From sequence record PQ511146.1: a stretch of 64,000 bases of DNA, one strand, 5' to 3'. The notes beneath the pieces are model-generated. The model was not told the origin of the DNA. It saw nothing but the letters and a program-made list of their open reading frames with translations, and made no database searches. The translations under genes and the position numbers were made by a program. The DNA comes from Escherichia phage NHEP1. Positions 1-14,213 of the stretch are shown in pieces; the stretch's first letter is position 1, and the number at the start of each line of letters is the position of its first letter.

Positions 1-85
1 CTCATCTTAAAGCCCCCTTTTTCGCTTAGTTGAGACTAGTTTACTTTATTGATGGCCCTGGAGTCAAGGCCATCTAAAAATAAAC

Positions 86-490
86 TTAATAAGTTTTCAG
101 TACTTTACCGTCCAACCTGTCAAGCTGGATCTCAATAGCTGCAGAAAACCTATTGTACACCACGTCGCCCATGGAATCCAACCAGTCTATGACGTTATAC
201 ACCTGCTCTTTGTTCTTGCAGGTCCGGATCCGTTTCATGATGTAAGCCGGATCAATATTGGTACTTTCGTTGGTGTTCCCCTGTACCTGATTTGCCGTAT
301 TAGTTACATCTTTAATGGCCTTTACCACCACCTGGAAGGGCTTTAAGGTGCCTTTTGCGTTCATCTCACGCACTTTTGCGGCGCGGTTGTTATAGGTTAC
401 ACAACGGCGGCAAATGTTCACTAAGTGCATGTCAATAATTTTTTCATCGTTTGCCAGTTCGTTCATGATGCGGCGTACGTTCTTATTCAT
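86..490 (-). CDS. hypothetical protein (134 aa)
   Basis: ATG with AAGGA SD about 8 nt upstream; no recognisable motif. Confidence 0.6.
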   Translation of the reverse strand: MNKNVRRIMNELANDEKIIDMHLVNICRRCVTYNNRAAKVREMNAKGTLKPFQVVVKAIKDVTNTANQVQGNTNESTNIDPAYIMKRIRTCKNKEQVYNVIDWLDSMGDVVYNRFSAAIEIQLDRLDGKVLKTY

Positions 491-510
491 GATCTTTTTC
501 CTTTGTGTTG

Positions 511-533
511 GCGGGAAACATTCCCGCCTTTTG
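511..533. promoter_or_regulatory. GC-rich hairpin GGCGGGAA-aca-TTCCCGCC in 5'UTR of gene 86..490
   Basis: 8-bp inverted repeat seen in sequence; followed by T-rich tract on plus strand. Confidence 0.3.
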
Positions 534-538
534 TGATT

Positions 539-566
539 AGTTTACTTGAATTTTGCAGCGTGTCAA
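539..566 (-). promoter_or_regulatory. sigma70-like promoter (TTGACA-16-TAAACT)
   Basis: -35 consensus hexamer with acceptable -10 upstream of gene 86..490. Confidence 0.3.
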
Positions 567-572
567 CAATTT

Positions 573-971
573 TTATTCGTGGGCGCATGTTACAATGTGC
601 TTTTTATAGCCCAGGTGGTTAGCAAGTGCCGACAAAAACTCTTCTTCATAGATCCAGCCGTTGGCAGTGATCCCCATAGCATTTAATGCGCTCTCAAGTG
701 CTGCATTAGCTTTATCGTAACCGTGACCGCTCGCCTTCCCGCCAGTATAACCGTACTTATTGTTCTTGTTGTCGTGAATCCAAAAAACACAGTATTGAGT
801 GTTCCCGCTGGCGGCGGCATAATACCGGATCTCAGCTACTTCGTGCAAATTATTGTCATCGTCCAGGCCCACCAGATTATAAGCCTTGTAAAATCCACGA
901 TCACGGCGGCAGTTCTTGACATCAGAAAAAGAAAAGTCCGCATTATCAAAATTAAAGGTAGTGGTTTTCAT
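573..971 (-). CDS. hypothetical protein (132 aa)
   Basis: ATG with AAGAGGA SD 7 nt upstream. Confidence 0.6.
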   Translation of the reverse strand: MKTTTFNFDNADFSFSDVKNCRRDRGFYKAYNLVGLDDDNNLHEVAEIRYYAAASGNTQYCVFWIHDNKNNKYGYTGGKASGHGYDKANAALESALNAMGITANGWIYEEEFLSALANHLGYKKHIVTCAHE

Positions 972-1003
972 GATTTTATCCTCTTAGTGTCTTTTGTGCT
1001 TTT

Positions 1004-1032
1004 AGTGTATTTGGTGTCAGAATGTATGTCAA
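1004..1032 (-). promoter_or_regulatory. sigma70-like promoter (TTGACA-17-TACACT)
   Basis: consensus -35 with weak -10 upstream of gene 573..971. Confidence 0.3.
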
Positions 1033-1035
1033 TAC

Positions 1036-1233
1036 TTATTTTTTATTAAACCAGTGGTTGATCTGGCCTTTTGTCAGGGCGCAACGATTAAGCTGTTGCC
1101 GGGTGTAGCTCTGACCGCGACGGAATTTATAAAGGCCTTGCCCGTTGTTGATGGTTACGTCCACCTGGCAAATCATTTGATCGGTGACGGCCTGGCGAGT
1201 GTTGCGACGTACTTTAATTCCGTAGGCGTTCAT
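1036..1233 (-). CDS. hypothetical small basic protein (65 aa)
   Basis: ATG with GAGAGGA SD; R/K/Q-rich. Confidence 0.55.
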   Translation of the reverse strand: MNAYGIKVRRNTRQAVTDQMICQVDVTINNGQGLYKFRRGQSYTRQQLNRCALTKGQINHWFNKK

Positions 1234-1285
1234 GATTTTTATCCTCTCTGTTAATTAGTGTGGTGTTGTTCACCTTGCGAGGATA

Positions 1286-1313
1286 AGAATAACAGAACTA
1301 TCCGAGCTGTCAA
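1286..1313 (-). promoter_or_regulatory. sigma70-like promoter (TTGACA-16-TATTCT)
   Basis: consensus -35 upstream of gene 1036..1233. Confidence 0.3.
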
Positions 1314-1633
1314 CCATTAGTTAGAATTATTTTTTGGGCAGAATTCTCCAGCCGCCGCCACTGCCAGGTTAACCATCATTTTTTCGTACTCTTCTTTATG
1401 TTCCAACGCTCCCGCCATAGCCTTTTCAACCAGGGCGATAGCCTCAGCGTCATTAATCGCTACATTTTCCAGGGGGGATCCTATTACCTTTCATTTTTGT
1501 ACCTCTTCTTCAGTTGTTGCCTACCCTGCATAGGCCCACCAGGTTTGCAAGCCTTCATTCTCCCCTACCTGGTCAGTTAGGTCCTGCCAGGCTGGCCCCG
1601 CCAGGTTGCAACGGTTAGCGCATCAGGTTAGAA

Positions 1634-1647
1634 TTTTTTTTTTTTTT
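1634..1647 (+). repeat. homopolymeric T14 tract
   Basis: 14 consecutive T seen in sequence, immediately upstream of a TTGACA hexamer (possible UP element). Confidence 0.9.
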
Positions 1648-1654
1648 GAAAGTG

Positions 1655-1683
1655 TTGACAGCGGCCCCGCCAGGTGGCACAAT
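1655..1683 (+). promoter_or_regulatory. candidate plus-strand promoter (TTGACA-17-CACAAT) with upstream T-tract
   Basis: consensus -35, weak -10; no downstream ORF, would drive a non-coding transcript. Confidence 0.3.
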
Positions 1684-1754
1684 ATACCTATCGAAAGGAC
1701 GGCAGGCACCGGTGACGGGGGAGACAACCACCGGGGATGGGCGCTGCATAAAAT

Positions 1755-1773
1755 GAGAACGGTTATCATTATC
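1755..1773. promoter_or_regulatory. Fur-box-like site (GATAATGATAACCGTTCTC on minus strand)
   Basis: 11/11 contiguous match to the left half of the E. coli Fur consensus GATAATGATAATCATTATC, 16/19 overall. Confidence 0.35.
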
Positions 1774-1890
1774 ATTTAAAAATTTATGCAAAAAATCCTT
1801 GCTCTCTTTGTCCTGTGTGATACTATAATAACAAGCCGGGGCAACAGGGGCCGGGAGACAATCACCGGGGGTGCCTGTTATTCTGCAAAC

Positions 1891-1907
1891 GAGAATGATT
1901 ATCATTC
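1891..1907. promoter_or_regulatory. Fur-box-like perfect palindrome GAGAATGATTATCATTC
   Basis: 7-bp inverted repeat GAATGAT/ATCATTC; 14/19 to Fur consensus. Confidence 0.35.
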
Positions 1908-2029
1908 AAAATTCTAAATGAGAACTTCTCGCATTTCATAAATTTAATTAGCATGCTAATTACCTACCGTGACAATTCTATATAAAATAATACCTCCTTA
2001 AGTATTTCCATATACAAATTTTAAAAATC

Positions 2030-2210
2030 CATTTCCGAAAACGAAAAATCGCTTTCGTTCCCAAAAATTTCAGGTCGAGCGCCGGAACGATTTCCAGAAA
2101 ATCTGATTCAGAAAACGAAAAACAGATCGAGTACTGAGAAATTTATCGAGAAAAATTTTCAGAAAATTCAATCTTTGAAATGAAAAACAGATCGAGTACT
2201 GAGAGAGATG
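2030..2210. repeat. A-tract rich array with 23-bp perfect direct repeat GAAAAACAGATCGAGTACTGAGA (2117-2139 and 2182-2204)
   Basis: direct repeats 65 bp apart plus repeated GAAAACGAAAAA motifs; iteron-like. Confidence 0.6.
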
Positions 2211-2512
2211 TGCCTAAACTTCCTGATAATGATGGGCTTATTGTTATAAAAGGCCAGAAGTAAGTTGGGAAAGTTCTGGTAGATGGGTGAGAGTGTGTGC
2301 GGAAAATCTGGAACGGTGATTTGAAGTACGGTGCGAATGATAGAATGAGTAGCGCAGCTTATCGTGCCTGTCTTGAAAAAATCCATTTTAGTTTTCGATC
2401 CATTTTCTGATTTTCTAAGAATTTTAAAATATCCGACTAGGTAAAATATCAAAAGGAGGAAATCTATTTTAGAAACCCTCCTTATACTTGATGTGCCAGG
2501 GATTTTCAAGTA

Positions 2513-2842
2513 TCAACTATCTTTGTTTTTAGGCTTGTACATGCGTAGAGGTATAGTTTTTATAACACTCCATCTCCCCAGCCCTTCCCAGTTCCAGTTG
2601 TGGGCATGGTACCCGGTTATGCATGCACTGCTGGCGTGATCATAAGCATAAGAGAACGCTATGCGTAACAAACGAGGCCAGTCTTTCCATGGTTGTGGTC
2701 CGTAAGCTTTTCTCCAACACCGACACAAACTAAATGTCTCAAGAATAGGCAGGATAACAAATCCATACACCGCCACCAGAATGGTCAGCGCAATGATTGT
2801 CAGGAATACATACCCTGCAGTTGAAATAATGATCTCTGTCAT
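2513..2842 (-). CDS. hypothetical membrane protein (109 aa)
   Basis: ATG with AGGGGA SD; hydrophobic N-terminal helix; ATGA overlap with upstream gene. Confidence 0.55.
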   Translation of the reverse strand: MTEIIISTAGYVFLTIIALTILVAVYGFVILPILETFSLCRCWRKAYGPQPWKDWPRLLRIAFSYAYDHASSACITGYHAHNWNWEGLGRWSVIKTIPLRMYKPKNKDS

Positions 2843-3036
2843 TTGTCATCCCCTTTCTTACGGATATAGATGTGAGAGCCTGCTTGTACATAAATTTCCC
2901 GACCATCTTCTGCAAAGATGTGGAATACACGGTCACCTTCGTATTCAATACGAGATATCTTCATAACGGTCTTCCCACCCGGAATGCGGATCTCATCGCC
3001 TACAGCAATGTTCCATGCAGATTTAAGCTTAAACAT
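2839..3036 (-). CDS. hypothetical protein (65 aa)
   Basis: ATG 6 nt after AAGGAGG; track start GTG at 3042 sits directly on the SD. Confidence 0.55.
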   Translation of the reverse strand: MFKLKSAWNIAVGDEIRIPGGKTVMKISRIEYEGDRVFHIFAEDGREIYVQAGSHIYIRKKGDDK

Positions 3037-3274
3037 CGTCACCCTCCTTTGGGAACTTGAACTCTGGCATAGCCATATACGCTACAACAGGGTTGTGATC
3101 AAAGTAGAACTGACCATTAATTATCCCAGTTTTTTGCACATAGTCACCAGATCCTGCAAGAACAACCTCGCAAGCTCCGAAATCTACATTGCCATTCTCG
3201 TCAGCCATGGCTACGATATACTTTCCGAGAGGCATGTTTTTAACGCCGTCTACAAATGTCCACCCTTTGTTCAT
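3029..3274 (-). CDS. hypothetical protein (81 aa)
   Basis: ATG with GGAGA SD. Confidence 0.6.
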   Translation of the reverse strand: MNKGWTFVDGVKNMPLGKYIVAMADENGNVDFGACEVVLAGSGDYVQKTGIINGQFYFDHNPVVAYMAMPEFKFPKEGDDV

Positions 3275-3294
3275 ACTTTATCTCCTGCACTTTC

Positions 3295-3627
3295 TTAAGG
3301 TAACCAGTAAACAATCTCGCCTTTCAGTTCCATACCATTACCTACATAAATTTGCCAGCCATCCATCTTAGCTGCTGCAGGAGTAAAATCTTCAGAGCCT
3401 CTAACCTCTTTCCATGAGCCATAGTCTGGCTGCCAGATATAAAATCCACCTTCTTTGTCCCATGCGCAATACACCACGTTCAACCAGTTACCCATTGCAA
3501 CAATGGTGGGCCGTGGGAATAATACATCTACAGATGCGCAGCAATATCGGGTATCTTTTAAATTGCAATCCCAAAAGATGTCTGCCAGTGTGGCGGCGAT
3601 AGCTTTACGTCTTTCTAATGTTACCAT
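3295..3627 (-). CDS. hypothetical protein (110 aa)
   Basis: ATG start; operon context. Confidence 0.55.
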   Translation of the reverse strand: MVTLERRKAIAATLADIFWDCNLKDTRYCCASVDVLFPRPTIVAMGNWLNVVYCAWDKEGGFYIWQPDYGSWKEVRGSEDFTPAAAKMDGWQIYVGNGMELKGEIVYWLP

Positions 3628-3637
3628 GGTACGATAC

Positions 3638-3829
3638 TCACTTGTTGTTAAGAAGTTCTAAAACTTTCTGTTTTACTTTATCAAGATCTGTTGATTCAAA
3701 AACTGTGCGATATCCCCAACTTTGCCCATAGGAATGACTGCAATCACCGTAACACCATTGCTCAACCTGATAGTATTCAAGGAATGGGTGCTGTCTAACT
3801 ATGATACCGTCTCGATTAAAAATTACCAT
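3638..3829 (-). CDS. hypothetical protein (63 aa)
   Basis: ATG with GAGAGGGA SD. Confidence 0.55.
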   Translation of the reverse strand: MVIFNRDGIIVRQHPFLEYYQVEQWCYGDCSHSYGQSWGYRTVFESTDLDKVKQKVLELLNNK

Positions 3830-3860
3830 AATTTATCCCTCTCTGCTAGTTTATGTTTAT

Positions 3861-3888
3861 ATTATATACCGCAGTTTTCAGATGTCAA
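3861..3888 (-). promoter_or_regulatory. sigma70-like promoter (TTGACA-16-TATAAT)
   Basis: both hexamers consensus; intergenic, upstream of gene 3638..3829. Confidence 0.5.
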
Positions 3889-3892
3889 CCTT

Positions 3893-4087
3893 TTACAGGT
3901 TACTCCAGTATACTCGGCATTTACACTTCGGGCAATGAGGTTCTTTTATGTAATAACCGTCAGTCTTTGGAACACTTTTTGGTGCAGTTTTAAGATTGTA
4001 CCGAGTAAAGCAACGGAAGCAGGTTACCTCTCCTACCTGTTGATCGTTTATCCACTCGCCAGAGTAAAGCTCTTTCTTGTTTCTCAT
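3893..4087 (-). CDS. zinc-ribbon protein (64 aa)
   Basis: ATG with GGGGAGA SD; CxxC...CxxC; track GTG extension to 4144 is less likely. Confidence 0.5.
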   Translation of the reverse strand: MRNKKELYSGEWINDQQVGEVTCFRCFTRYNLKTAPKSVPKTDGYYIKEPHCPKCKCRVYWSNL

Positions 4088-4089
4088 AA

Positions 4090-4284
4090 TTATCTCCCCA
4101 AGCCTCTGCAATCTTCTACCAGAATCTCCAGCCAGAAAGCACACGGGAACACTTTGATGATTGAATCTTCACTCGGCTCGGAAGTTCTTTTTCCGTAGGG
4201 CAGGTAGAAATACCCTCCTGCAGATTCAAACATGGCTCCTTCTGTTGTATCTATCACAGCTAGAATTAAGATTTTAGTCTCCAT
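4090..4284 (-). CDS. hypothetical protein (64 aa)
   Basis: ATG with GGGGAG SD. Confidence 0.5.
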   Translation of the reverse strand: METKILILAVIDTTEGAMFESAGGYFYLPYGKRTSEPSEDSIIKVFPCAFWLEILVEDCRGLGR

Positions 4285-4313
4285 AGTGCTCCCCTGTCTT
4301 AATCGTTGTGGTG

Positions 4314-4342
4314 ACTATACCACCTTAAAATATAGCTGTCAA
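4314..4342 (-). promoter_or_regulatory. sigma70-like promoter (TTGACA-17-TATAGT)
   Basis: consensus -35 and 5/6 -10 upstream of gene 4090..4284. Confidence 0.5.
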
Positions 4343-4797
4343 CACTCTTTGTACTCCACCACGATAATATCTATATCAAAAGTGGCAAGGTTAATAATGT
4401 CCTCTACATGTTCCCACTTCAAACCGCCTATGCCGCACCCGATCTTAGGGATGTAGAATGGTAAAATCGACCCCTCAAATACTTCATTGACTCGCTCAAA
4501 TCCTTTCAGTATTGAGAAATATTCAGCATTAGGCCCTGGGTAGAACTGAGTATACAGATTTATTCCGTAGACAATACCTCTCGGAGATAAGTGCTCCCAG
4601 CGGGAGAACGCGCCCAGTTTACTTAGGCAACCGTGCATAGTCATTTTATCAGCTTCCAATGCTTGAGGGAACTCACGGGCAATCTGTTTTGCTACACCCT
4701 TACCCATTGTGTGGAAGCAGTTACAACCGTGGATCAGGTGACCATCACCGCTCTTAAAAAGGGAGATTAAATCTCCCTCTACAGTATCAATAATCAC
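4339..4797 (-). CDS. macro-domain (ADP-ribose binding/processing) protein
   Basis: IVIIDTVEGDL...HGCNCFHTMGKGVAKQI fits macro-domain N(x5)GxGVAxxI pattern; likely GTG start at 4797 after AGGAG, overlapping upstream stop; track ATG at 4878 lacks an SD. Confidence 0.5.
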   Translation of the reverse strand: MIIDTVEGDLISLFKSGDGHLIHGCNCFHTMGKGVAKQIAREFPQALEADKMTMHGCLSKLGAFSRWEHLSPRGIVYGINLYTQFYPGPNAEYFSILKGFERVNEVFEGSILPFYIPKIGCGIGGLKWEHVEDIINLATFDIDIIVVEYKEC

Positions 4798-5212
4798 GAT
4801 ATTCCAGCTCCTCTTCCACAATTTCAAAAAACTCAGTCCAGCACTGTGGCATATTGGAGTTACCGAAGTGGCTTTCATAGTAAAGGTTTTTACCGCTCGG
4901 AAGATAAAAATCTGTTACCTCATAAAATCCACAATCGTCGCACTCTCCCTCTTCAAACTTGGCCTTAACCTTAATGCCGAGGAAGGTGAAAAGTTTATGG
5001 ATATCTTCGGTCTCGAACTCCCAATTAATGTTGTTTTCCGCATCGGTGTAAAACTGGATCAGTAGGCCATCATCCATTTTTCCAAAATATTCTGTGAAGT
5101 AGCTTCCTTCCCAGAAGTCTTTGTGACAAATAATATCCATGCGCTTGCCCATAATAAAGGTGTGGGCGTTTCGTGCATCGTCACGAATCAGTTTTGGCAT
5201 TTCATAAATCAT
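4787..5212 (-). CDS. hypothetical protein (141 aa)
   Basis: ATG start; operon context. Confidence 0.6.
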   Translation of the reverse strand: MIYEMPKLIRDDARNAHTFIMGKRMDIICHKDFWEGSYFTEYFGKMDDGLLIQFYTDAENNINWEFETEDIHKLFTFLGIKVKAKFEEGECDDCGFYEVTDFYLPSGKNLYYESHFGNSNMPQCWTEFFEIVEEELEYRDY

Positions 5213-5277
5213 CGTAGTTCTCCAGGATCAATAGGTGGTGCTACAGGAAGATCATAAAACATGGCGATCACATTCTC

Positions 5278-5475
5278 TTACGCAGGGATTGCTTCAAACA
5301 GGCCGTTATCGATACCATCCTTCAAGTAAAGATTATACTCTATGTCAGTATCTGTGTAAAGGGCAGCATCTAGCATTCTATCTGTTAGTCCATCCATTGG
5401 GTGGAGAAACCACCACCCACGCCAGTCAAAGTAACAACCTGGTGCATCTTCTCTCACACGGATTCGATAAATCAT
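5278..5475 (-). CDS. hypothetical protein (65 aa)
   Basis: ATG with AGGAGG SD. Confidence 0.45.
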   Translation of the reverse strand: MIYRIRVREDAPGCYFDWRGWWFLHPMDGLTDRMLDAALYTDTDIEYNLYLKDGIDNGLFEAIPA

Positions 5476-5571
5476 GGGCAGTGGCCTCCTGTTAGTTACA
5501 CATCCCAGTTTTCTTCGTTCATTACATCCTCCAGCTCAACAAGGTTATAATTGCACACCTTACAACCCGTG

Positions 5572-5988
5572 TCAACAGAAAACTTCAACAAATTCTTCCA
5601 CAGTTTTAATGTCGTGGGAAAAAGGTTTGCGGCTATAACGGGCAATAGCACTGTCAACCACCGCCCGGTACTCCAAATCTTCAGAATATTTCATGAAGCA
5701 TTGCAACGTCTCTGGACAGATAGCCAGATAGCTCCACCACCCCTCTTCAGATTGGTAGTCAAATCCCATACTCTCTAGCCACGAAGCGTATACACCTGCA
5801 CCTTCCAGCCAGTGAGTATTTTCATCAAGGAACTTGTTCACAGTCATGTGAGCTTCTAAGCATTTATCCAACTCTTTTCCGTTAACCAGCCACGCACTGA
5901 CAGTGGCGCATCCAAGGTCCACAGATTGGGTTGATAGATTGTATTGGTCATAGTTCTCAGGTTTAACAATGATATCTTCTAATGTCAT
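5572..5988 (-). CDS. hypothetical protein (138 aa)
   Basis: ATG with AGAGAGGA SD 7 nt upstream. Confidence 0.6.
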   Translation of the reverse strand: MTLEDIIVKPENYDQYNLSTQSVDLGCATVSAWLVNGKELDKCLEAHMTVNKFLDENTHWLEGAGVYASWLESMGFDYQSEEGWWSYLAICPETLQCFMKYSEDLEYRAVVDSAIARYSRKPFSHDIKTVEEFVEVFC

Positions 5989-6005
5989 TTTTCAGTCCTC
6001 TCTAT

Positions 6006-6035
6006 ACAAAAATGCCCCACCCTTTCGGGCAGGGC
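6006..6035 (-). terminator. rho-independent terminator (GCCCUGCCC-GAAA-GGGUGGGGC + U-run)
   Basis: 9-bp stem with GNRA tetraloop followed by AUUUUUG on minus strand, just downstream of gene 6051..7277. Confidence 0.6.
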
Positions 6036-6050
6036 TATGTTGACTAGATG

Positions 6051-7277
6051 TTAAAAAGGTATGTCATCATCAAAGGCGTACTGTGCCGGATTCTGATCCA
6101 TCGGGTCGTCTTCCGCATCATCTACAGGAGGAGCGTCTACAGTGTTTTGCTGTGGGGCGGCTTCCTGTTTGGCAGCTTGAGGCTCTTGATGGTCAGTGAC
6201 TCCAGCACCGTTCTTGATCCAATCATACAACGGTTCAGCAAGATTAGTCAAGACATCTTTTGCCTCTGCAGTAATTGCTACTGCAAAATCATCAACTTTC
6301 GTTTTCTTGTCAATACGGCGACAAGCGTTCAATACCGCATTACCAACACTGGCACCTACTTCATCTTCAGTTCGGTTAGTGGCTTGAGCGTACTCTTTCT
6401 TAAGCTCGATGGTGACCACGTGCAGTGTTTTAGCCACATCTAAAGGACTGTCAATCTTAAACCCGCGATCCAGGATGATCTGCAATGCATTGATACTGTG
6501 CCCTGTCTCTACACCGATGGGGTCGTAAGAGGATTTACGCTTACCACCAGAACCTTGTGTACCGTTCTCTGCTTTAGGCGGGTAGGCCTTGAAGCCGCTG
6601 ATAATATTCCCGGTGTCTTTGTCAACAATAGCTGCAACACGACCACCTACCACCAGGTCTTTAAGCTGCTCATCAGAGACAACCATAGCACCTTCACCAA
6701 TCTTGTGATCATTGACAGTAACCACGTTGCCAACAATCTGAGTCACATCGCCATAGATGCGTAAAACGTCCTGATTGGCATTCTGCTGAGGTTTCTGCTT
6801 CTGGCCTTGTGATTGTGCACCTTGTTGCTGTTTTTGCTGCTGAGTCGCTGCTGGAGCCTCTCCTGCACCCAGCTTGACCATCTTAGCCAGGGAGCCTTTG
6901 TAATAGATCTTACCGTTATGCTCGTTTGCCTTCAAAGGGATATTTACGATCCATCCTGGCGTTACAGTTTCCCACTTGTCATCAATTTTAACAGAGACAG
7001 AGTCTTGATGACCCGGTTTAAGCAGCTTATCACCCATACTGATCCAAACTTCTTCACCACCTTGAAGCAGGTTATCAGAGGAATCCAGTTCAGAAATCAG
7101 TAAAGAGATGGTGTGGCTGGATTCAATTTTCTTACCTTGCCACACAGTGGTTTTAATACCTGTTGTAGGATCAGCACCTTTGATAGGCTTGATGCTGACA
7201 CGTTTAATCATGCCGTGAGCCAGTAAAACAGTTTCACGCGGATTCATCGGGTTAGCGAATTGTTGAATAACGCTCAT
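6051..7277 (-). CDS. putative ssDNA-binding / replication accessory protein with SSB-type C-terminal tip
   Basis: 408 aa; Q/G-rich low-complexity linker; ends ...QYAFDDDIPF, matching the E. coli SSB tip (DDDIPF); N-terminal fold not identified. Confidence 0.45.
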   Translation of the reverse strand: MSVIQQFANPMNPRETVLLAHGMIKRVSIKPIKGADPTTGIKTTVWQGKKIESSHTISLLISELDSSDNLLQGGEEVWISMGDKLLKPGHQDSVSVKIDDKWETVTPGWIVNIPLKANEHNGKIYYKGSLAKMVKLGAGEAPAATQQQKQQQGAQSQGQKQKPQQNANQDVLRIYGDVTQIVGNVVTVNDHKIGEGAMVVSDEQLKDLVVGGRVAAIVDKDTGNIISGFKAYPPKAENGTQGSGGKRKSSYDPIGVETGHSINALQIILDRGFKIDSPLDVAKTLHVVTIELKKEYAQATNRTEDEVGASVGNAVLNACRRIDKKTKVDDFAVAITAEAKDVLTNLAEPLYDWIKNGAGVTDHQEPQAAKQEAAPQQNTVDAPPVDDAEDDPMDQNPAQYAFDDDIPF

Positions 7278-7642
7278 TATTTATCTCCTTGTTCTTCGTT
7301 AGTGTTTGCCGTGTGTGCAAACCCTGCTTGAATTAATTTGTCCTGAACTTGAGCCAACAGGCCCATTGCAAAACTTGTGGTCCCAGAGAGGGCCATCAGC
7401 ATATCTCGTTGTTGAGCTACCCAACCTAAGGCATAGTCCAAACGACGATATTTTTCTTCTTCACGCAGAGCCTGGAATAATTGTTCAGCCTCTGGCTGTT
7501 GTGTAAGCTCCTGAAGTCTTCCCATGAAAGAAGAAAGCACTAGCAGAAGAGACACTTGATCTTTACTTAACCCTAAGAAAAATTCTTGAGGTTGTTCTTG
7601 CTCGTTCATCGCAACCGACGCTTGATCGTTCATTTGTTCCAT
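7277..7642 (-). CDS. hypothetical protein (121 aa)
   Basis: ATG 8 nt after GGAG; track TTG extension to 7753 covers hairpin and promoter-like sequence. Confidence 0.5.
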   Translation of the reverse strand: MEQMNDQASVAMNEQEQPQEFFLGLSKDQVSLLLVLSSFMGRLQELTQQPEAEQLFQALREEEKYRRLDYALGWVAQQRDMLMALSGTTSFAMGLLAQVQDKLIQAGFAHTANTNEEQGDK

Positions 7643-7686
7643 TATGGAATCTCCGATTTTATTTGAACAACATAGAAGGAGACACC

Positions 7687-7715
7687 ATTTTAGCATCTCC
7701 TTCTGCAAATTACAA
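7687..7715 (-). promoter_or_regulatory. candidate promoter (TTGTAA-17-TAAAAT) overlapping an inverted repeat
   Basis: hexamers derived from minus-strand reading; GAAGGAGA/TCTCCTTC inverted repeat overlaps. Confidence 0.3.
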
Positions 7716-7725
7716 CAGGTATTTG

Positions 7726-7971
7726 TTAGCCAATTACTTCGAAAGTACCCCAACTCCCGTTCAGCAGGCAGGTGATCGGATCACCATCATCGTCAATTAT
7801 TTCAAAGTTTTCAACATCCAGAATATGGTCATCGAACACAATGCTCTTATCGCCACCACCAGAAATAACAGCGTATTCCTTACCTTGTGTTAGGTTCTGG
7901 CAACCTTTGCCGCCGAAACCAACTTCAACACAACGTACTTTCTGTCCTGCGCGAGCAACTACTCCAGCCAT
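7726..7971 (-). CDS. hypothetical protein (81 aa)
   Basis: ATG start; operon context. Confidence 0.55.
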   Translation of the reverse strand: MAGVVARAGQKVRCVEVGFGGKGCQNLTQGKEYAVISGGGDKSIVFDDHILDVENFEIIDDDGDPITCLLNGSWGTFEVIG

Positions 7972-7988
7972 CTTAAGGTCTCCTGATA

Positions 7989-8291
7989 TTAATCGTCAAG
8001 TTCAAAATAGATTTTAACAGCTTCATCAAAGATTGGAATCCCGATGTTGTTGATAAGCTGCCAAACTACCATATCTTTTCCTGGATCTGGGAGAATGTCA
8101 ACCTTTCTCCATGCGCTATATATCCAGTTCGGACCGCCTTCTGCACTAACTGGTAGATTTTCACCAGCTTCTTGTAAATACTTATACAGCAAAAGGTATT
8201 CTGGGTACTCTAGAACACTGTCCTCTGTAGTATATAGCAGTTCACGGTATACTTTCAAGAATCCTGTTGGGTTGATGTTTTCAGTCTTCAT
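7989..8291 (-). CDS. hypothetical protein (100 aa)
   Basis: ATG 8 nt after AGGAGA; track start 8309 lacks an SD. Confidence 0.5.
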   Translation of the reverse strand: MKTENINPTGFLKVYRELLYTTEDSVLEYPEYLLLYKYLQEAGENLPVSAEGGPNWIYSAWRKVDILPDPGKDMVVWQLINNIGIPIFDEAVKIYFELDD

Positions 8292-10466: not shown

Positions 10467-13400
10467 TTAGTGACAATCACCCCAGTTACGACCGCACAAG
10501 TATTCACCTGTGATCTGGAACGGAACGCCCATCATTTTAGAAGCCTGCCAGAAGCAATGCACCACCATTTCGCCCACAGGGCTCCAGATAAGCTCAAGCT
10601 TTCCGTCATCATTCAAGATAGGATCGTATACCGTATTTCCATCCTTGTCAACCACTTCGTTTCCGTCCTCATCTTTGCGTGCCTTTTTGTACTTATGACC
10701 GTCGAACACATGAAGTTTAGCCTCTTGTTGGGCTTTAAATGTTTCCAGCTCTTCAATTGTGTCGAAGGTGTATACGGTTTTATACTTAGGTGTGTCAGGC
10801 ACTTGAAGCTGATATTCGTCATGGTAATAGATAATACGACGAACACCCTCATCATACCATCCACGCTTCACCATCTGGTGGTGCATGAGGATTCCGACCA
10901 AGTCGCACAACGATGCACCGCCATTTTGCTGATATGCATTAAGCAAAGAGTGTTTAGAGCGGGTCCAAATGGCATGCCCGTCAAAAGAGTAGATAAATTT
11001 CTTACCTGTTGCTTCCCAGAATTTCTCCAGATCCTCTTTACGCCCCTTAAGGCCCGGGTTGGCATCCCAGAGAGCATCAATTACTCTCTGTCCAAGTTCT
11101 GGAGAGATATCTAGCATATCTGCAACTTTATCTTTTTGTGCCCCGTACATAACCCCATATGTGACAGGCTTACCATCGTTACGGGAAATCTCCTTGCCTG
11201 CTACAGAAGAGTAAGCTTTGGCGTTATTACAGTTACCGCACACTGCCACTTTACCATTCCTTCTCACAATGATTGCTCCAGAAGGGACGGTAACGCAATA
11301 AACCAAAGAACCGCTCACCTCGACAGACTCTTTAGATAGTGTCAGCAACCCTGCTCTCTGTTTGCTACCAATCGTGATTCTGTGCTGTACGGAACGACCT
11401 TTTTTGTGAATCGCCACCGTATTATTCCGTAAACCACACTGAGTAGCCAGCGCAGACACAACCTCTACAGATTTCTTCCTGCACCCGGCCTGAGAGTAGT
11501 AGGCAACTTTTCCACCTTCGGAAGATACCCACCCGTCCCAGTTAGATAAAGAAGCTATAAACAGGTTTTTAGATTCTTTATCAAGGTCCATCAGGTTGTA
11601 GGTGAAATCCTTATTGCTGTCCAAAAACTCAAATACCCAGGACGGAACGTGGAATTGGAACCTTCTCGCCAGTAAGCCCCCTTTTGTGGTTTTCCCGCTC
11701 TGCTCTACATAACTAAGGCTTAGAGCAGAAAAAGTATCTAAAAGCGTTGCAACTTTTCTGCCCTTCCCGACCTGAATCCTGCACACGATGCTGCCGTCCT
11801 TATTTGTATGCAAGTGCCCATCATCGTGAATAGCAATAAGCAAATTAACCTGGGCAGGAGATAAGGTTGTATTCCCATAAAACTCTGCCGCATGGATAAA
11901 CCTTCTTCCTGAATTAGACCCTTTACCTGCTTTCAGGTCTTTTGCCAAATCTTCAAACAATTTATTGCTTCTGTGATCCACGGTCAGCATCCTGTGTTGA
12001 TCTGTAACCATAAAATCCACACTGCTGTTGTGGAAATGATACATATCCCCACAATAACTACGCTTAACGTAATTTAATGGAGTAACAAGGTTCATCGACG
12101 AGGTGTTGTGATCGTACTGGAACACCTGTGTTCCCGGATCAAGATCTTCAAACCTCACCCACCCTTTCTCCGTGAGAATTTGTGTATCTCCTGAATAACA
12201 GTGTGCATCGCCGTTACTTACAACATCATAATACAGACCGTTGTCAAACTCAAAGGCACCCCAGGCCCCGATGAGCTGCTCTAAGTTGGACCCGTCAATA
12301 CCGATCTCAAAGTATCCTGGAGGAACACCCCACAGACTACGCATCTCTTTACCCATAACCACTTTAGGAGATGGTTTAGGCATGTTTGCACAAATACTAT
12401 GTTTCTGTCTGGAAGTGTTTGTTAATCCAGAACTTTTAGCAGGAAGCTTGTGGTCAATCTTCAAACGTGGATGATTAAGAAGACCAGTATCAACCTTATC
12501 TTCCTTGATTGGATCAAGGACCGATCTGCGGTTTCGCAATGATAACCACAAAACGATATCTTTAGCCATCTCTCCGTTCAATTTTTCAAGATTCGGGCAC
12601 AGGTGTCCAAACGTATCTTTCAGTTGCGGAGAAGTAATAAGCGCTCTGGCTTTTCTACGTATCTTCCCAAACACTTCCTTTTTAATCCTTTCTGAGTTAG
12701 GGAAGCTTCGGAACTTATGCACAGTTGTCTGGAACTTGGCATCAGTTTTGTTCCAGAAGTTGATAATTAGATCACAATACTCTGACTCCAAAAGCTCGTC
12801 CATATATGCATATACTCGTGCATCAACATCTGCATCAGGTAAAGCTTTCTTCTTGCTGTCTTTAGTTACATCTTTAGTTCTCCACATTGTTGGGAGCCAA
12901 CCAGCACTGATCAGGTATCGCTTGATGTCGTCCTGATTGCTGATTTTCATAGGTATCTTGCAGTCAGGCATTCGCTTCTGCTGTAGGTCACTTATCGCCT
13001 GATCCATCAGCTCTTTAGGTAAAGGGTGTGGTGTAGAAGTTCCTTTGATATACCCCCTCAAGAAATCAGCCATCTTATCGGGGTCTTTACAGCCCATCTC
13101 TTCACACCATTTTATCCCCATCTTACTTACATCCCCTGTGGAGGTAAATGCTCGCTTAGGAGGAGCTTTGAACTCTAAAGCACTCATGTCCACAGGGTAG
13201 CCAAGCTTGTCTTTTAACCATTTCCAACCATTATTGGAGATTGTCCCATCTTGGTTAAACGGCTTTTCAGGGAACTTAGGCCGCTGAGACATTGATAACT
13301 CTTTTAAAGGAAGTTGTGGTTCAACACGATCAGCGATCTCTTTCATCCACGCATCGCAACGGTCACGTAAAGCAATAGCCCCATCTATGTCGAAATACAC

Positions 13401-14213
13401 CCCCTGTCGAGCCTGCAGCTCCATCAGGAAGTGCTGTAACATGCCTCGGCGTAATGCGTTCTTCCAGGTGATCTTCTTGAAGCCTTTCGGCTTCTCTTTG
13501 GCAGGATCGTACATAAAGTTCTGCATGTCAGATTTGCCGTAGAATACACCTTTTGATTCCGCTACCAACTCCTTCCAGAGCAACTCCTGGATGATAACGT
13601 CCTCGAACACACGATCCACATACTTCCACAGTGGAAGCTCACGCCAGTCATCGATTTGAACTTTCTGGTTACCAAGGGCATAGCCCCATGCCATAAGGCC
13701 ATGAGGCCCAACAGGCTGCATTTTCTTGGTAACTGGATTGAATACTGCGTCCGGACAACCTTTTGGCAAAGGGCGGTCAGGCCACAAGATTCGGCTCATC
13801 GCTAACGTATCAAACAGATTAACCGGGTGGTCGTTGATAGTCCCCATGCATTTAGGATCACGGAACATATCAAAATGAATACCGGATAATCTTTCCATCA
13901 GCATAAAGTCGTAACTGTAGCAGTTATGACAGTTCAAAGCCGTAGGTGACCAGTCTGAATTGCCTGTAAGCCAACCTTCCAACTCTGAAAAATCTGCTAT
14001 GCGAGCCTCAAAATCTGTATAAAGGGTCTTCTTTGCCAGAATGAAGTTCTTAGCTTTCTCCACATCCTCTTCAGAGTAGTGTGTGCGGTCATTTAGAGGA
14101 AGGAACAGCATAAAACGGTTCTTATTCAGCTCTTTAAACAAACCGCAGTGATAATAAAGATCTGGGTCTTCCAGCAGGCCAGAGGCCTCAAAATCGAACG
14201 ACCACATGCTCAT
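10467..14213 (-). CDS. family A DNA polymerase (3'-5' exo + pol) interrupted by an intein
   Basis: Exo I FDFEASGL; motif A IGIDGSNLEQL; motif B KPVTYGVMYG; motif C YYHDEY; AAGGAG SD; 1248-aa precursor. Confidence 0.9.
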   Translation of the reverse strand: MSMWSFDFEASGLLEDPDLYYHCGLFKELNKNRFMLFLPLNDRTHYSEEDVEKAKNFILAKKTLYTDFEARIADFSELEGWLTGNSDWSPTALNCHNCYSYDFMLMERLSGIHFDMFRDPKCMGTINDHPVNLFDTLAMSRILWPDRPLPKGCPDAVFNPVTKKMQPVGPHGLMAWGYALGNQKVQIDDWRELPLWKYVDRVFEDVIIQELLWKELVAESKGVFYGKSDMQNFMYDPAKEKPKGFKKITWKNALRRGMLQHFLMELQARQGVYFDIDGAIALRDRCDAWMKEIADRVEPQLPLKELSMSQRPKFPEKPFNQDGTISNNGWKWLKDKLGYPVDMSALEFKAPPKRAFTSTGDVSKMGIKWCEEMGCKDPDKMADFLRGYIKGTSTPHPLPKELMDQAISDLQQKRMPDCKIPMKISNQDDIKRYLISAGWLPTMWRTKDVTKDSKKKALPDADVDARVYAYMDELLESEYCDLIINFWNKTDAKFQTTVHKFRSFPNSERIKKEVFGKIRRKARALITSPQLKDTFGHLCPNLEKLNGEMAKDIVLWLSLRNRRSVLDPIKEDKVDTGLLNHPRLKIDHKLPAKSSGLTNTSRQKHSICANMPKPSPKVVMGKEMRSLWGVPPGYFEIGIDGSNLEQLIGAWGAFEFDNGLYYDVVSNGDAHCYSGDTQILTEKGWVRFEDLDPGTQVFQYDHNTSSMNLVTPLNYVKRSYCGDMYHFHNSSVDFMVTDQHRMLTVDHRSNKLFEDLAKDLKAGKGSNSGRRFIHAAEFYGNTTLSPAQVNLLIAIHDDGHLHTNKDGSIVCRIQVGKGRKVATLLDTFSALSLSYVEQSGKTTKGGLLARRFQFHVPSWVFEFLDSNKDFTYNLMDLDKESKNLFIASLSNWDGWVSSEGGKVAYYSQAGCRKKSVEVVSALATQCGLRNNTVAIHKKGRSVQHRITIGSKQRAGLLTLSKESVEVSGSLVYCVTVPSGAIIVRRNGKVAVCGNCNNAKAYSSVAGKEISRNDGKPVTYGVMYGAQKDKVADMLDISPELGQRVIDALWDANPGLKGRKEDLEKFWEATGKKFIYSFDGHAIWTRSKHSLLNAYQQNGGASLCDLVGILMHHQMVKRGWYDEGVRRIIYYHDEYQLQVPDTPKYKTVYTFDTIEELETFKAQQEAKLHVFDGHKYKKARKDEDGNEVVDKDGNTVYDPILNDDGKLELIWSPVGEMVVHCFWQASKMMGVPFQITGEYLCGRNWGDCH
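11232..12200 (-). other. intein (about 323 aa) within DNA polymerase, with LAGLIDADG-like endonuclease insert
   Basis: N-terminal CYSGDTQIL after extein ...GDAH; block B TDQH; block F VYCVTV; C-terminal ...VCGN followed by +1 Cys; LLIAIHDDGH and LFIASLSNWDGW resemble LAGLIDADG motifs. Confidence 0.7.

What the first reader, a model, noticed from the sequence alone, without database searches (positions are those of the whole stretch)
2030..2210. Iteron-like array: 23-bp perfect direct repeats and phased GAAAAC motifs
GAAAAACAGATCGAGTACTGAGA occurs twice (2117-2139, 2182-2204), 65 bp apart, inside an A-tract-rich stretch with repeated GAAAACGAAAAA motifs in both orientations. Direct repeats of this length in AT-rich intergenic DNA are typical of replication origins or arrays of sites for a phage DNA-binding protein. 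The region lies between early gene clusters, where an origin or packaging signal would be plausible.
Basis: seen in the sequence. Interest (0 to 1): 0.5.

Follow-up and report, generated by a model that had tools for sequence, protein, structure and literature searches.

The report
Conserved repeat array in phage control island
The two identical 23-base repeats are real and form the core of a three-unit repeat array in a roughly 1-kb gene-free island that rV5-like phages keep almost unchanged; it most likely helps start DNA replication, but this has not been shown.

Summary
The window is an rV5-like (Vequintavirus) coliphage. The 23-mer occurs exactly twice, at the stated coordinates, and nowhere else in 64 kb. 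The two copies are the cores of 65-bp tandem units II and III; a degenerate unit I lies upstream. The claimed helical phasing of A-tracts is not significant.

The array is non-coding and not a structured RNA. It is more conserved (0.92 mean pairwise identity; unit II 0.96) than the flanking genes (0.80-0.83) or the adjacent spacer (0.70). Seunavirus, Mydovirus, Certrevirus and Henunavirus carry three 63-78-bp units ending in (G)ATCGAG(A/T)(A/C)CC. An Aeromonas phage keeps the core.

The array sits in a ~1-kb island with, in order:
- tandem sigma70 promoters pointing against all neighbouring genes;
- GC hairpins and Fur-box-like palindromes at 29-bp spacing;
- the least stable duplex of the window, then the array;
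- a G-skewed variable spacer, an inverted AT-rich block and a minus-strand terminator.

Best reading (about 0.35): a transcription-activated replication origin region of the T7/T4 type, for a phage with a T7-like replisome. It is not a classical iteron origin. Rivals are an early non-coding RNA, a transcription-control or insulator array, and a pac site. I found no published description.

The parts
2117..2139 (+). 23-mer copy 1 (core of unit II): GAAAAACAGATCGAGTACTGAGA. Contains GATC and the invariant ATCGAGTAC.
   Evidence: invariant in 17 vequintavirus sequences
2182..2204 (+). 23-mer copy 2 (core of unit III). Most relatives read GAAAAAGTGATCGAGTAC here.
2011..2084 (+). Array unit I (74 bp, degenerate). 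Holds AAAAATCCATTT, GAAAACGAAAAA, a weak palindrome (2031-2068) and a core-like GGTCGAGCG (TCGAG at 2075-2079).
   Evidence: (D3, I8)
2085..2149 (+). Array unit II (65 bp), the most conserved unit (mean pairwise identity 0.964).
   Evidence: (D1)
2150..2214 (+). Array unit III (65 bp). Starts with GAAAAATTTT, the counterpart of the AAAAATTTTTT that opens each unit in other genera.
1933..2032 (.). AT-rich segment (GC 0.23). Least stable 100-bp duplex of the whole 64-kb window (z = 4.6); candidate unwinding element.
1655..1683 (+). Sigma70-type promoter (here called P_A): TGTTGACA, 17-bp spacer, TGgCACAAT (extended -10). It points rightwards, against all flanking genes, and fits the Vequintavirinae early-promoter consensus TGTTGAC.
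   Evidence: invariant in relatives, and two variants move the -10 towards consensus (CATAAT); consensus from PMC7344957
1775..1829 (+). Second + strand promoter (here called P_B). Perfect -10 TATAAT at 1824-1829, an A/T-rich UP-like stretch at 1775-1797, and a poor -35 (TTGCTC, 19-bp spacer).
   Evidence: Read from the sequence. Homologous promoters in other genera: TTGATC-16-TGcTATTAT, TTGCAA-17-TATATT
1836..1886 (.). GC-rich hairpin unit with the cross-genus invariant loop GAGACAAnCACCG. A paralogous unit lies at about 1690-1750.
   Evidence: (D4)
1885..1936 (.). Two palindromic boxes 29 bp apart (AAACGAGAATGATTATCATTC, AAATGAGAACTTCTCGCATTTC). 1891-1909 matches the Fur-box consensus 15/19. 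A further box at 1755-1773 matches 16/19.
   Evidence: (D6, D13)
2205..2372 (.). Variable spacer (pairwise identity 0.70, with 1- and 2-nt indels) of conserved composition: G 0.32, C 0.12. It holds the strongest G>C skew of the window. Its minus-strand RNA would be C-rich, G-poor and nearly unstructured (like a Rho-loading 'rut' site).
2373..2452 (.). Conserved AT-rich right block. It carries array motifs in inverted orientation (minus strand: GAAAATCAGAAAATGGATCGAAAAC) and AAAATATC twice. Second least stable duplex of the window.
   Evidence: (I5, I14, I22)
2453..2483 (-). Intrinsic terminator hairpin of the upstream minus-strand gene (2513-2842), followed by UUUUGAUAUUUU.
   Evidence: -15.7 kcal/mol, z = -3.0; conserved
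1533..1679 (+). Four copies of GGCCCCGCCAGGTKGCA, one inside the spacer of the 1655-1683 promoter (operator-like). This left edge of the island is variable in copy number among relatives.
   Evidence: (D2)

Best explanation
The repeats are the recognition cores of a three-unit tandem DNA array. The array is the central part of a ~1-kb non-coding island (about 1495-2510), which most likely serves as a transcription-activated origin of replication.

Proposed mechanism:
1. Host RNA polymerase starts at the conserved sigma70 promoters (1655-1683; -10 at 1824-1829). These point rightwards, against every neighbouring gene, and have no open reading frame to express.
2. Transcription runs through G-rich hairpin segments and the palindromic boxes into the most easily melted DNA of the region (1933-2032), then the array, then the G-skewed spacer.
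3. This opens the duplex and/or leaves an RNA-DNA hybrid that the phage's T7-like DNA polymerase can extend.
4. The array units, each ending in GAAAA(A)-NN-GATCGAG(T/A)AC, are bound by an unidentified phage protein, or by the primase-helicase itself, which assembles the replisome there.
5. The minus-strand terminator (2453-2483) and the C-rich (rut-like) spacer shield the island from the strong incoming minus-strand transcription.

Shown: the existence, uniqueness, conservation and anatomy of the array and island; the promoter-like sites and their conservation; the low duplex stability; the T7-type replication genes.

Inferred: that the promoters fire, that a protein binds the cores, and that replication starts here.
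For: Uniqueness:
- The 23-mer (up to 3 mismatches) occurs only at this locus in 64 kb.
- The 271-bp region has one locus per genome in 116 phage records; second places were checked in four genomes and were only the internal repeat offset.

Selection (17 vequintaviruses, mean pairwise identity):
- Array 0.916; unit II 0.964.
- Spacer 0.705; flanking coding sequence 0.80-0.83.

Deep conservation of architecture:
- Three 63-78-bp units with the same motif order and a (G)ATCGAG(A/T)(A/C)CC core in 4MG, KB57, CR8 and Erwinia pEp_SNUABM_01.
- The cores are also present in Aeromonas phage 2L372X.
- The island is detectable in 361 phage records.
- Orthologous units resemble each other more than paralogous ones (by eye), so each unit is individually maintained.

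Not coding, not structured RNA:
- ORF calls are inconsistent between records, and relatives differ by 1-2-nt indels.
- Folding z-scores are near 0 on both strands.
- There is no consensus structure and no Rfam hit.

Origin-like context:
- The two least stable 100-bp segments of the window flank the array (1933-2032, z = 4.6; 2375-2474, z = 4.15).
- 2-3 tandem + strand sigma70-like promoters are conserved in every genus of the subfamilies Vequintavirinae and Stephanstirmvirinae examined, while their spacers diverge. They are always oriented towards the array and against the flanking genes. In the Aeromonas phage a promoter-like site was read by eye only; the scan found none on that strand.
- In Seunavirus, Mydovirus and Henunavirus a third promoter sits directly upstream of unit 1.

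Replisome type:
- gp4-like primase-helicase (DnaB_C/AAA_25) at 14272-16350, a family-A DNA polymerase at 10467-14213 and a PIF1-like helicase at 20154-21524 (rV5 annotation).
- No recognisable initiator protein was seen among the genes examined.
- The rV5 genome paper could not place the origin by skew (PMC3606486).
Against: - There is no direct evidence of initiation.
- Classical origin hallmarks are missing: no DnaA, IHF or Fis consensus sites, no adjacent initiator gene, and flanking genes of unknown function only.
- A-tracts are not helically phased.
- The GC/AT-skew step at the island is only local, about 4 kb.
- rV5 has a larger (2.6-kb) repeat-rich non-coding region at 104.0-106.6 kb, at a convergent transcription junction. 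It is an equally good or better origin candidate, and its duplex stability is as low.
- In Stephanstirmvirinae the promoter/hairpin/box part is kept, but the array is replaced by unrelated AT-rich tandem units. The GATCGAG array is therefore not indispensable to whatever the island does.
- Near base-by-base invariance over about 500 bp within the genus exceeds what known origins need.
Confidence: 0.35

Rival explanations
1. The array is the body of an early non-coding RNA. The + strand promoters transcribe it, and the repeated, largely unstructured modules act at the RNA level as a decoy or sponge for a host RNA-binding protein or nuclease. This would be analogous to the pseudo-ToxI antitoxin mimic of the related phage phiTE.
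For: - Strong conserved promoters with no ORF downstream. In 4MG, KB57 and the Erwinia phage a promoter lies about 40-50 bp upstream of unit 1.
- Precedent: a tandem-repeat ncRNA in an rV5-like phage counteracts ToxIN (PMC3475682).
- The 3' halves of the units fold slightly better than shuffles on the + strand (mean z = -0.82, combined Z = -3.2, against -1.6 on the minus strand).
Against: - No consensus secondary structure for the units, and whole-array z is about 0.
- Units are 63-78 nt, against 34-45 nt for type III antitoxins.
- Copy number is fixed at 3 (no expansions) in all genomes seen.
- A-richness and purine bias of the + strand are not conserved (0.61 here, 0.48-0.53 in Erwinia, CR8 and Aeromonas).
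- No + strand terminator follows the array.
- The phiTE pseudo-ToxI locus lies elsewhere, next to the tRNAs and terL.
- Conservation across hosts looks like a core function, not an accessory counter-defence.
Confidence: 0.2
2. The array is a protein-binding control region for transcription only: an insulator or upstream regulatory region between two minus-strand early operons. It would be bound by a phage regulator or a host nucleoid protein and would act together with the Fur-box-like operators that overlap weak minus-strand promoters.
For: - The island is bracketed by a minus-strand terminator plus a rut-like C-rich spacer on one side, and by the next minus-strand promoter (1313-1286; P195B in rV5) on the other.
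- A weak minus-strand promoter, ATGAAA-17-TAGAAT (1939-1911), is overlapped by two boxes, and the array lies at about -100 to -300 from it.
- An exact H-NS high-affinity 10-mer, TCGATAAATT, lies between units II and III (consensus recalled from memory).
- The operator-like GGCCCCGCCAGGT repeat lies in a promoter spacer.
Against: - The minus-strand promoters score only 9/12 and are not found in every genus.
- The single H-NS motif may be chance (7 matches at 9 or more of 10 positions in 64 kb).
- This reading does not explain why the two most meltable segments flank the array, or why dedicated strong + strand promoters face it.
- No regulator gene is adjacent.
Confidence: 0.2
3. The array and the inverted right block are the two arms of a pac site. 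Small terminase would bind the repeats and the first headful cut would fall in the variable spacer, as in P1 (GATC hexamer clusters) or SPP1 (pacL/pacR).
For: - These phages are circularly permuted, headful packagers. A sub-molar 'pac fragment' is reported for phiTE (PMC3475682), and PhageTerm calls a vequintavirus 'pac' (PMC13211470).
- The layout is two conserved motif blocks in opposite orientation around a poorly conserved 168-bp spacer.
- The cores contain GATC, and the phage encodes an N6-adenine methylase.
Against: - The island lies among early genes, far from the terminase genes. In phiTE terL is near the tRNAs in a different region.
- GATC is not universal in the cores (Erwinia: CTCAAGT).
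- Two GenBank records that begin or end inside the island do so at arbitrary assembly breaks; one shows an assembly overlap. About 0.8 such cases are expected by chance among roughly 360 records.
- No terminus has been mapped here.
Confidence: 0.07

Closest known systems
Phage T7 primary origin (tandem promoters phi1.1A/1.1B followed by an AT-rich segment)
   Same: Tandem promoters are directed into an AT-rich, easily melted segment. The replisome is of the same type (family-A polymerase plus gp4-like primase-helicase), and no dedicated initiator protein is known. (T7 facts are from established knowledge; the local features are.)
   Different: The promoters here are host sigma70-type and point against the surrounding genes. 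A 3 x 65-78-bp repeat array, palindromic box arrays and a G-skewed spacer are added, none of which T7 has. Function is untested.
Phage T4 origins oriF/oriG (middle promoter plus unwinding element, R-loop primer) and oriE (early promoter, iterons, unwinding element)
   Same: Promoter followed by an unwinding element. oriE combines an early promoter, a non-coding primer transcript and short direct repeats.
   Different: T4 oriE iterons are about 12 nt and clustered. Here the conserved cores are spaced 52-78 bp apart within long units. There are no repE-like genes nearby and no sequence similarity.
Iteron origins (lambda ori; plasmids P1, pSC101, RK2)
   Same: Direct repeats lie next to an AT-rich region. 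The nearby 19-21-bp palindromic boxes at 29-bp spacing resemble lambda's four dyad-symmetric iterons more than the 23-mers do.
   Different: No cognate Rep or O gene, no DnaA or IHF sites, only 2-3 long-spaced copies, and A-tracts that are not phased.
pac sites of P1 (two clusters of TGATCA/G hexamers, Dam-dependent) and SPP1 (pacL-pacC-pacR)
   Same: Two blocks of short repeated motifs, some with GATC, flank a less conserved middle segment. The phages package by the headful mechanism.
   Different: The site is not in or near the terminase genes, GATC is not conserved in all genera, and no terminus has been mapped.
Type III antitoxin RNA arrays (ToxI) and phage pseudo-ToxI (phiTE)
   Same: Promoter followed by head-to-tail non-coding repeats, in a phage of the same subfamily as phiTE.
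   Different: The unit length differs (65-78 nt against 36 nt), there is no pseudoknot or consensus structure, copy number does not vary, and the genomic locus is different.
Fur boxes of enterobacterial iron-regulated promoters (for the palindromes adjacent to the array)
   Same: 15-16 of 19 matches to GATAATGATAATCATTATC, with overlapping 6-bp registers and tandem sites. These are the only such matches in 64 kb.
   Different: They lie in a lytic phage, at a regular 28-29-bp period. The family consensus (AATGAGAATGATTCTCATT) differs from the Fur consensus at one position per half-site. Binding by Fur is untested.

Membership tests
Iteron-type replication origin | Three or more direct repeats of about 17-22 bp, usually contiguous or at regular spacing of about 2 helical turns | tested here: not met
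   Two perfect 23-mers plus one degenerate copy. The core conserved across genera is about 10-12 bp, spaced 52, 65 and 63-78 bp apart.
Iteron-type replication origin | Adjacent AT-rich DNA-unwinding element | tested here: met
   1933-2032 is the least stable 100-bp duplex of the 64 kb (z = 4.6); 2375-2474 is second.
Iteron-type replication origin | Cognate initiator (Rep/O-like) gene at or next to the repeats | tested here: not met
   Flanking genes have no Pfam domain, and their PHROG families are of unknown function. Small + strand ORFs present in other genera are not homologous to each other and are absent here.
Iteron-type replication origin | Host-factor sites (DnaA boxes, IHF, Fis) | tested here: not met
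   No DnaA (8 or more of 9), IHF or Fis consensus match in 1500-2500.
Iteron-type replication origin | Replication initiates there / the region supports autonomous or phage-dependent replication | not testable with these tools
   Needs marker-frequency sequencing, 2D gels or an origin-cloning assay.
Transcription-activated phage origin (T7 / T4 oriF-G type) | Promoter(s) directed into the origin, not needed to express a downstream gene | tested here: met
   TTGACA-17-TGgCACAAT at 1655-1683 and TATAAT at 1824-1829 on the + strand, with no conserved ORF downstream. They are conserved in position and orientation in every genus of the subfamilies Vequintavirinae and Stephanstirmvirinae examined. 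Promoter activity itself was not tested.
Transcription-activated phage origin (T7 / T4 oriF-G type) | AT-rich unwinding element downstream of the promoter | tested here: met
   about 100-200 bp downstream of the second promoter.
Transcription-activated phage origin (T7 / T4 oriF-G type) | Replisome able to use an RNA polymerase transcript as primer (T7-like polymerase plus gp4-like helicase-primase) | tested here: met
   DnaB_C/AAA_25 in 14272-16350; DNA polymerase PHROGs and weak DNA_pol_A in 10467-14213; rV5 annotation. Primer use itself was not tested.
Transcription-activated phage origin (T7 / T4 oriF-G type) | Strand-compositional switch at the origin | tested here: inconclusive
   GC skew is -0.086 left and -0.128 right of the island within the same transcription unit, but the step is confined to about 4 kb.
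pac site of headful phages | Location in or beside the small-terminase gene, or a mapped terminus | tested here: not met
   The island is in the early region. In phiTE terL is in another region. Record ends inside the island are arbitrary assembly breaks, one with a 91-bp overlap.
Type III antitoxin-like RNA repeat array | Tandem 34-45-nt repeats, each folding into a pseudoknot or hairpin | tested here: not met
   Units are 63-78 nt, with no consensus structure and z about 0.
Known RNA families (Rfam 15) | Match to a curated covariance model | tested here: not met
   No hit with E <= 1 in window 1-8000 or in seven homologous loci.
Fur box (adjacent palindromes, not the 23-mers) | Match to the 19-bp consensus GATAATGATAATCATTATC, built of adjacent GATAAT-like hexamers | tested here: met
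   16/19 at 1755-1773 and 15/19 at 1891-1909, with hits in the 6-bp-shifted register. There are no other matches of 15/19 or better in 64 kb, and related genera score 15-16/19. Fur binding was not tested.

The most novel reading that the evidence does not exclude
The island is an iron-gated replication or transcription switch shared by hundreds of lytic enterobacterial phages. Host Fur would occupy the 29-bp-periodic box array between the outward-facing early promoters and the repeat array. It would thereby decide whether transcription enters the meltable DNA and the repeat units, where an unknown phage protein recognising GATCGAG(A/T)ACC assembles the replisome. Phage DNA replication would then be tied to the iron status of the host.
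Probability: 0.1. Interest if true: 0.8.

Novelty: new variant of a known kind. Interest (0 to 1): 0.55.

Why it matters
No origin of replication, pac site or non-coding regulatory RNA has been defined for the rV5-like phages (Vequintavirinae and their Stephanstirmvirinae relatives). These are a large group widely used for biocontrol and therapy of E. coli O157, Salmonella, Klebsiella, Cronobacter and Pectobacterium.

The island described here is one of the most conserved sequences seen in the parts of these genomes examined. It is non-coding, and database records mostly label it with spurious 'hypothetical protein' ORFs.

If it is the origin:
- It would give a cis-element for engineering these phages, for example origin plasmids and replication-dependent reporters.
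- It would be a new example of promoter-driven initiation that uses host RNA polymerase.

If instead it is an RNA or regulatory hub with genuine Fur boxes, it would show a lytic phage reading host iron status. Either way it defines a short list of experiments.

Tried and rejected
- **Protein coding.** ORFs 2070-2171(-) and 2168-2509(-), and the ORFs annotated in some relatives (rV5 ORF198/199, one YN3 CDS), are called inconsistently between records. Relatives differ by 1-2-nt indels, and in relatives the 27-codon + ORF that starts at the ATG at 2180, just before copy 2, hits a stop after 3 codons. Rejected.
- **Known RNA family.** No Rfam match.
- **Structured RNA in the array.** Folding z is about 0, and RNAalifold finds nothing for the units or for the GC hairpin alignment. 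Only a weak hairpin tendency remains.
- **tRNAs.** None.
- **Helical phasing or curvature of A-tracts.** Not significant.
- **DnaA, IHF and Fis sites.** None.
- **GC/AT skew as an origin marker.** Only a local step.
- **Genome terminus at the island.** The phiWec189 record starts, and the PQ002170 record ends, inside the island at arbitrary assembly breaks; PQ002170 shows a 91-bp assembly overlap. About 0.8 such cases are expected by chance.
- **Homology with the phiTE pseudo-ToxI locus.** It is a different region.
- **General promoter or terminator motif.** The 23-mer is unique to this locus, and no promoter-like site lies inside the array.
- **Terminator-like hairpin 2068-2031(-).** It is not conserved, and the substitutions in relatives are uncompensated.
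- **Two-core pattern scan of 185,000 bacterial genomes.** Only chance hits, mostly in GC-rich taxa.
- **Single-core scans of IMG/VR.** Mostly chance hits, but they yielded the distant relatives used above.
- **Conserved small + strand gene in the island.** Such ORFs exist in other genera but are mutually unrelated and absent here.
- **Conserved purine-rich + strand (R-loop or Hfq-type A-rich RNA).** Not conserved across genera.
- **Literature.** I found no description of the island, of an origin or of a transcriptome for these phages.
Full report
**What the window is.** Bases 1200-3200 are 90-94% identical to more than 100 Vequintavirus genomes: rV5, FV3, FFH2, YN3 and others, including mislabelled 'Campylobacter phage' records. 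All credible genes around the finding lie on the minus strand. The replication genes lie 8-19 kb further along the same minus-strand unit: a family-A DNA polymerase, a gp4-like primase-helicase, an N6-adenine methylase and a PIF1-like helicase.

**The observation.**
- The 23-mer GAAAAACAGATCGAGTACTGAGA is at 2117-2139 and 2182-2204. With up to three mismatches it occurs nowhere else in the 64 kb, and no shuffle produced a match.
- It is the end of a 55-nt imperfect repeat with a 65-bp period. A third, weaker unit lies upstream, so the array is three head-to-tail units: 2011-2084, 2085-2149 and 2150-2214.
- The 12-mer GAAAACGAAAAA occurs twice but is not statistically remarkable.
- The 'phasing' of A-tracts is not supported: p = 0.56 here, and not significant in other genera.

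**It is not a gene and not a structured RNA.**
- ORFs overlapping the array are annotated in some records and not in others, at different coordinates.
- The adjacent spacer carries 1- and 2-nt indels between relatives.
- Rfam finds nothing.
- Single-sequence folding of each unit and of 1990-2260 gives z-scores near zero on both strands.
- RNAalifold finds no consensus pairs in 14 units from five genera.
- The 3' halves of the units fold slightly better than shuffles on the + strand (combined Z = -3.2). This reflects short, unit-specific inverted repeats around a TTTTGAAAA-like centre, not a common structure.

**Conservation within the genus.** In an alignment of the window with 16 relatives, mean pairwise identity is:
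- array 0.916 (unit II 0.964);
- the stretch 1655-1935 to its left 0.961;
- spacer 2205-2372 only 0.705;
- flanking coding DNA 0.80-0.83.

The perfect 23-mer identity is limited to a subset of genomes. Most have CA to GT in copy 2, so the invariant part is GAAAA(A)-NN-GATCGAGTAC.

**Conservation beyond the genus.**
- Pattern scans of IMG/VR gave two more distant clades, one of which is phage 4MG.
- A sensitive blastn search with the 4MG homologue hit 361 phage records. They span Vequintavirinae (Seunavirus, Mydovirus, Certrevirus, Henunavirus), Stephanstirmvirinae (Phapecoctavirus, Justusliebigvirus) and an Aeromonas Plateaulakevirus.
- 4MG, KB57, CR8 and Erwinia phage pEp_SNUABM_01 each have three tandem units of 63-78 bp with the same internal order: A5T6, then AGAAAAAATACGATCT, then GAAAAyGAAAAA, then NN, then (G)ATCGAG(A/T)(A/C)CC.
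- The Vequintavirus units are the same thing with about one helical turn (10 bp) removed.
- The Aeromonas phage keeps two cores about 78 bp apart.
- In tuntematon and alia the same position holds unrelated AT-rich tandem units of 67-75 or 138 bp.

**The island around the array.** From left to right on the + strand:
1. Four GGCCCCGCCAGGTKGCA repeats (1533-1679), one inside a promoter spacer.
2. A near-consensus extended -10 promoter, TGTTGACA-17-TGgCACAAT (1655-1683). It fits the early-promoter consensus reported for Certrevirus (PMC7344957). Then a GC-rich hairpin unit and a Fur-box-like palindrome (1755-1773).
3. A second promoter with a perfect TATAAT (1824-1829) and an UP-like A/T tract.
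4. A second hairpin unit whose loop, GAGACAAnCACCG, is invariant across genera.
5. Two palindromic boxes 29 bp apart (1887-1936).
6. A perfect 16-bp palindrome (1946-1961).
7. The least stable 100 bp of the whole window (1933-2032, z = 4.6).
8. The array.
9. The variable spacer (2205-2372).
10. A conserved AT-rich block (2373-2452). It carries array motifs in inverted orientation and is the second least stable segment.
11. The intrinsic terminator of the upstream minus-strand gene (2453-2483; -15.7 kcal/mol, z = -3.0).

In every genus of the subfamilies Vequintavirinae and Stephanstirmvirinae examined, two or three sigma70-like promoters stand in tandem on the + strand. They point towards the array and against the flanking genes, while the promoter spacers have diverged. 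In Seunavirus, Mydovirus and Henunavirus one of them lies just upstream of unit 1.

**The spacer.** Although only about 70% identical between genomes, it keeps G 0.29-0.34 and C 0.12-0.16 (GC skew +0.32 to +0.46) in all 17 sequences. It contains the highest 168-bp GC skew of the window. Read on the minus strand it is a C-rich, G-poor, almost unstructured RNA (-12 kcal/mol for 148 nt). That is the composition of a Rho loading site placed behind the intrinsic terminator. Read on the + strand it is a G-rich transcript, which favours RNA-DNA hybrids. Both readings fit an island that is shielded from incoming transcription and transcribed from its own promoters.

**Interpretation.** A unique, strongly conserved, non-coding, unstructured array of sequence-specific units points to a DNA element recognised by a protein. 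So do its position between the two most meltable segments and the dedicated promoters facing it, in a phage with a T7-type replisome and no recognisable initiator.

The closest known logic is the T7 primary origin and the T4 oriE/F/G origins, where a transcript opens or primes an AT-rich segment. I therefore rank a transcription-activated origin first, at about 0.35. It is not a member of the classical iteron family: the repeat size, spacing and number, an initiator gene, and DnaA/IHF sites were all tested and not met.

**Weaknesses.**
- There is no functional evidence.
- The skew step at the island is only local.
- rV5 has a second, larger repeat-rich non-coding region at 104.0-106.6 kb. This is probably the 'non-coding' box of Kropinski et al. 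2013, and it competes for the role.
- Stephanstirmvirinae keep the promoter/hairpin/box module but swap the array.
- The almost base-perfect conservation of about 500 bp within the genus remains unexplained.

**Rivals.**
- An early ncRNA containing the array (0.2). It gains from the promoter just upstream in three genera and from the pseudo-ToxI precedent in phiTE. It loses on structure, unit size, fixed copy number and non-conserved strand composition.
- A purely transcriptional control or insulator array (0.2). It fits the terminator, the rut-like spacer, the box-overlapped weak minus-strand promoters and an exact H-NS motif.
- A pac site (0.07). It fits the two-arm layout and the GATC-containing cores, but nothing maps a terminus here.

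**Novelty.** I found no description of this island, of an origin or of a transcriptome for these phages in the searchable literature. Database records mostly cover it with inconsistent hypothetical ORFs or leave it blank. Two records mark 'repeat_region' features without comment.

Noticed in passing
window 1755-1773, 1885-1936 (and L070, L071, L072, L073, L075, L076): These palindromic boxes (family consensus AAATGAGAATGATTCTCATTT) match the Fur-box consensus 15-16/19. They are the only matches of 15/19 or better in 64 kb. They occur as arrays of 2-4 copies at a 28-29-bp period in every related genus, including an Aeromonas phage. This suggests iron/Fur control, or Fur titration, in lytic phages.
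   Followed up: partly
window 2205-2372: This variable spacer keeps an extreme G>C composition (GC skew +0.32 to +0.46) in all 17 genomes despite about 70% identity, and it holds the highest skew in the window. It looks like a Rho-loading (rut) site on the minus strand or an R-loop-prone G-rich transcript on the + strand.
   Followed up: partly
window 1533-1679: There are four copies of GGCCCCGCCAGGTKGCA, one lying in the spacer of the strong + strand promoter 1655-1683 (operator-like). Relatives differ by deletions of whole copies.
   Followed up: no
window 1836-1886 and 1690-1750: These are paralogous GC-rich hairpin units whose loop, GAGACAAnCACCG, is invariant from Vequintavirus to Phapecoctavirus, while the stems differ and give no consensus fold. 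They fold better on the minus strand (z = -2.6) than on the + strand (z about -1).
   Followed up: partly
window 1471-1476 (ORF region 1312-1494, minus strand): The G-run has one more G than in all 16 relatives. This frameshifts a 58-aa ORF that is intact and annotated in relatives, so it is either a sequencing error in a homopolymer or a real pseudogene.
   Followed up: partly
window 1634-1648: A T14 homopolymer lies just upstream of the + strand promoter. Most relatives have A2-4 T6-7 here, and a few keep a long T run, so the tract is length-polymorphic.
   Followed up: no
window 10467-14213 (minus strand): The DNA polymerase ORF is 1248 aa. DNA-polymerase PHROG matches cover residues 1-675 and 995-1248. 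Between them is a ~330-aa insert with a weak Hint-domain hit that resembles inserts found in PhoH and RNR phage proteins, so it is probably an intein. rV5 annotates a 775-aa polymerase.
   Followed up: partly
window 1946-1961: A perfect 16-bp palindrome, AATTAGCATGCTAATT, lies inside the AT-rich segment. It is conserved as TTAGCnnGCTAA in a more distant clade (L062, L029).
   Followed up: no
window 2422-2446: The right block contains AAAATATC twice and GGTAAAATA. These resemble the TggTAaAAtA motif that the rV5 genome paper found upstream of late genes. 4MG and CR8 have 3-4 copies of CAAATATC at the same place.
   Followed up: no
window 2140-2149 (minus strand): An exact match to the H-NS high-affinity 10-mer TCGATAAATT lies between array units II and III. 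There are 7 matches at 9 or more of 10 positions in the 64 kb. The consensus is recalled from memory.
   Followed up: partly
L077 8014-10619 (rV5 104,013-106,618; outside the window): This is a 2.6-kb ORF-free, repeat-rich region (AGTTTACA and AACTAT motif families, 18-bp perfect inverted repeats) at the convergent junction of two transcription units. It is a competing origin or terminus candidate. Similar AACTAT/TAGTTAC motifs are inserted inside the island of clade-2 relatives (L062, L029).
   Followed up: partly
PLSDB record CP057073.1 (hit H140): A 137,565-bp 'plasmid' from a cattle E. coli assembly is a complete vequintavirus genome (89% identity across the island). It is either phage carried along in the culture or a pseudolysogen.
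   Followed up: no
L071 1524-1538 (phage 4MG): The hairpin CGCCACTCCACGGCG at the left edge of the island reads on the minus strand as a canonical intrinsic terminator (stem plus TTTTCTCTTC). This hints that the island is also transcribed leftwards in Seunavirus.
   Followed up: no
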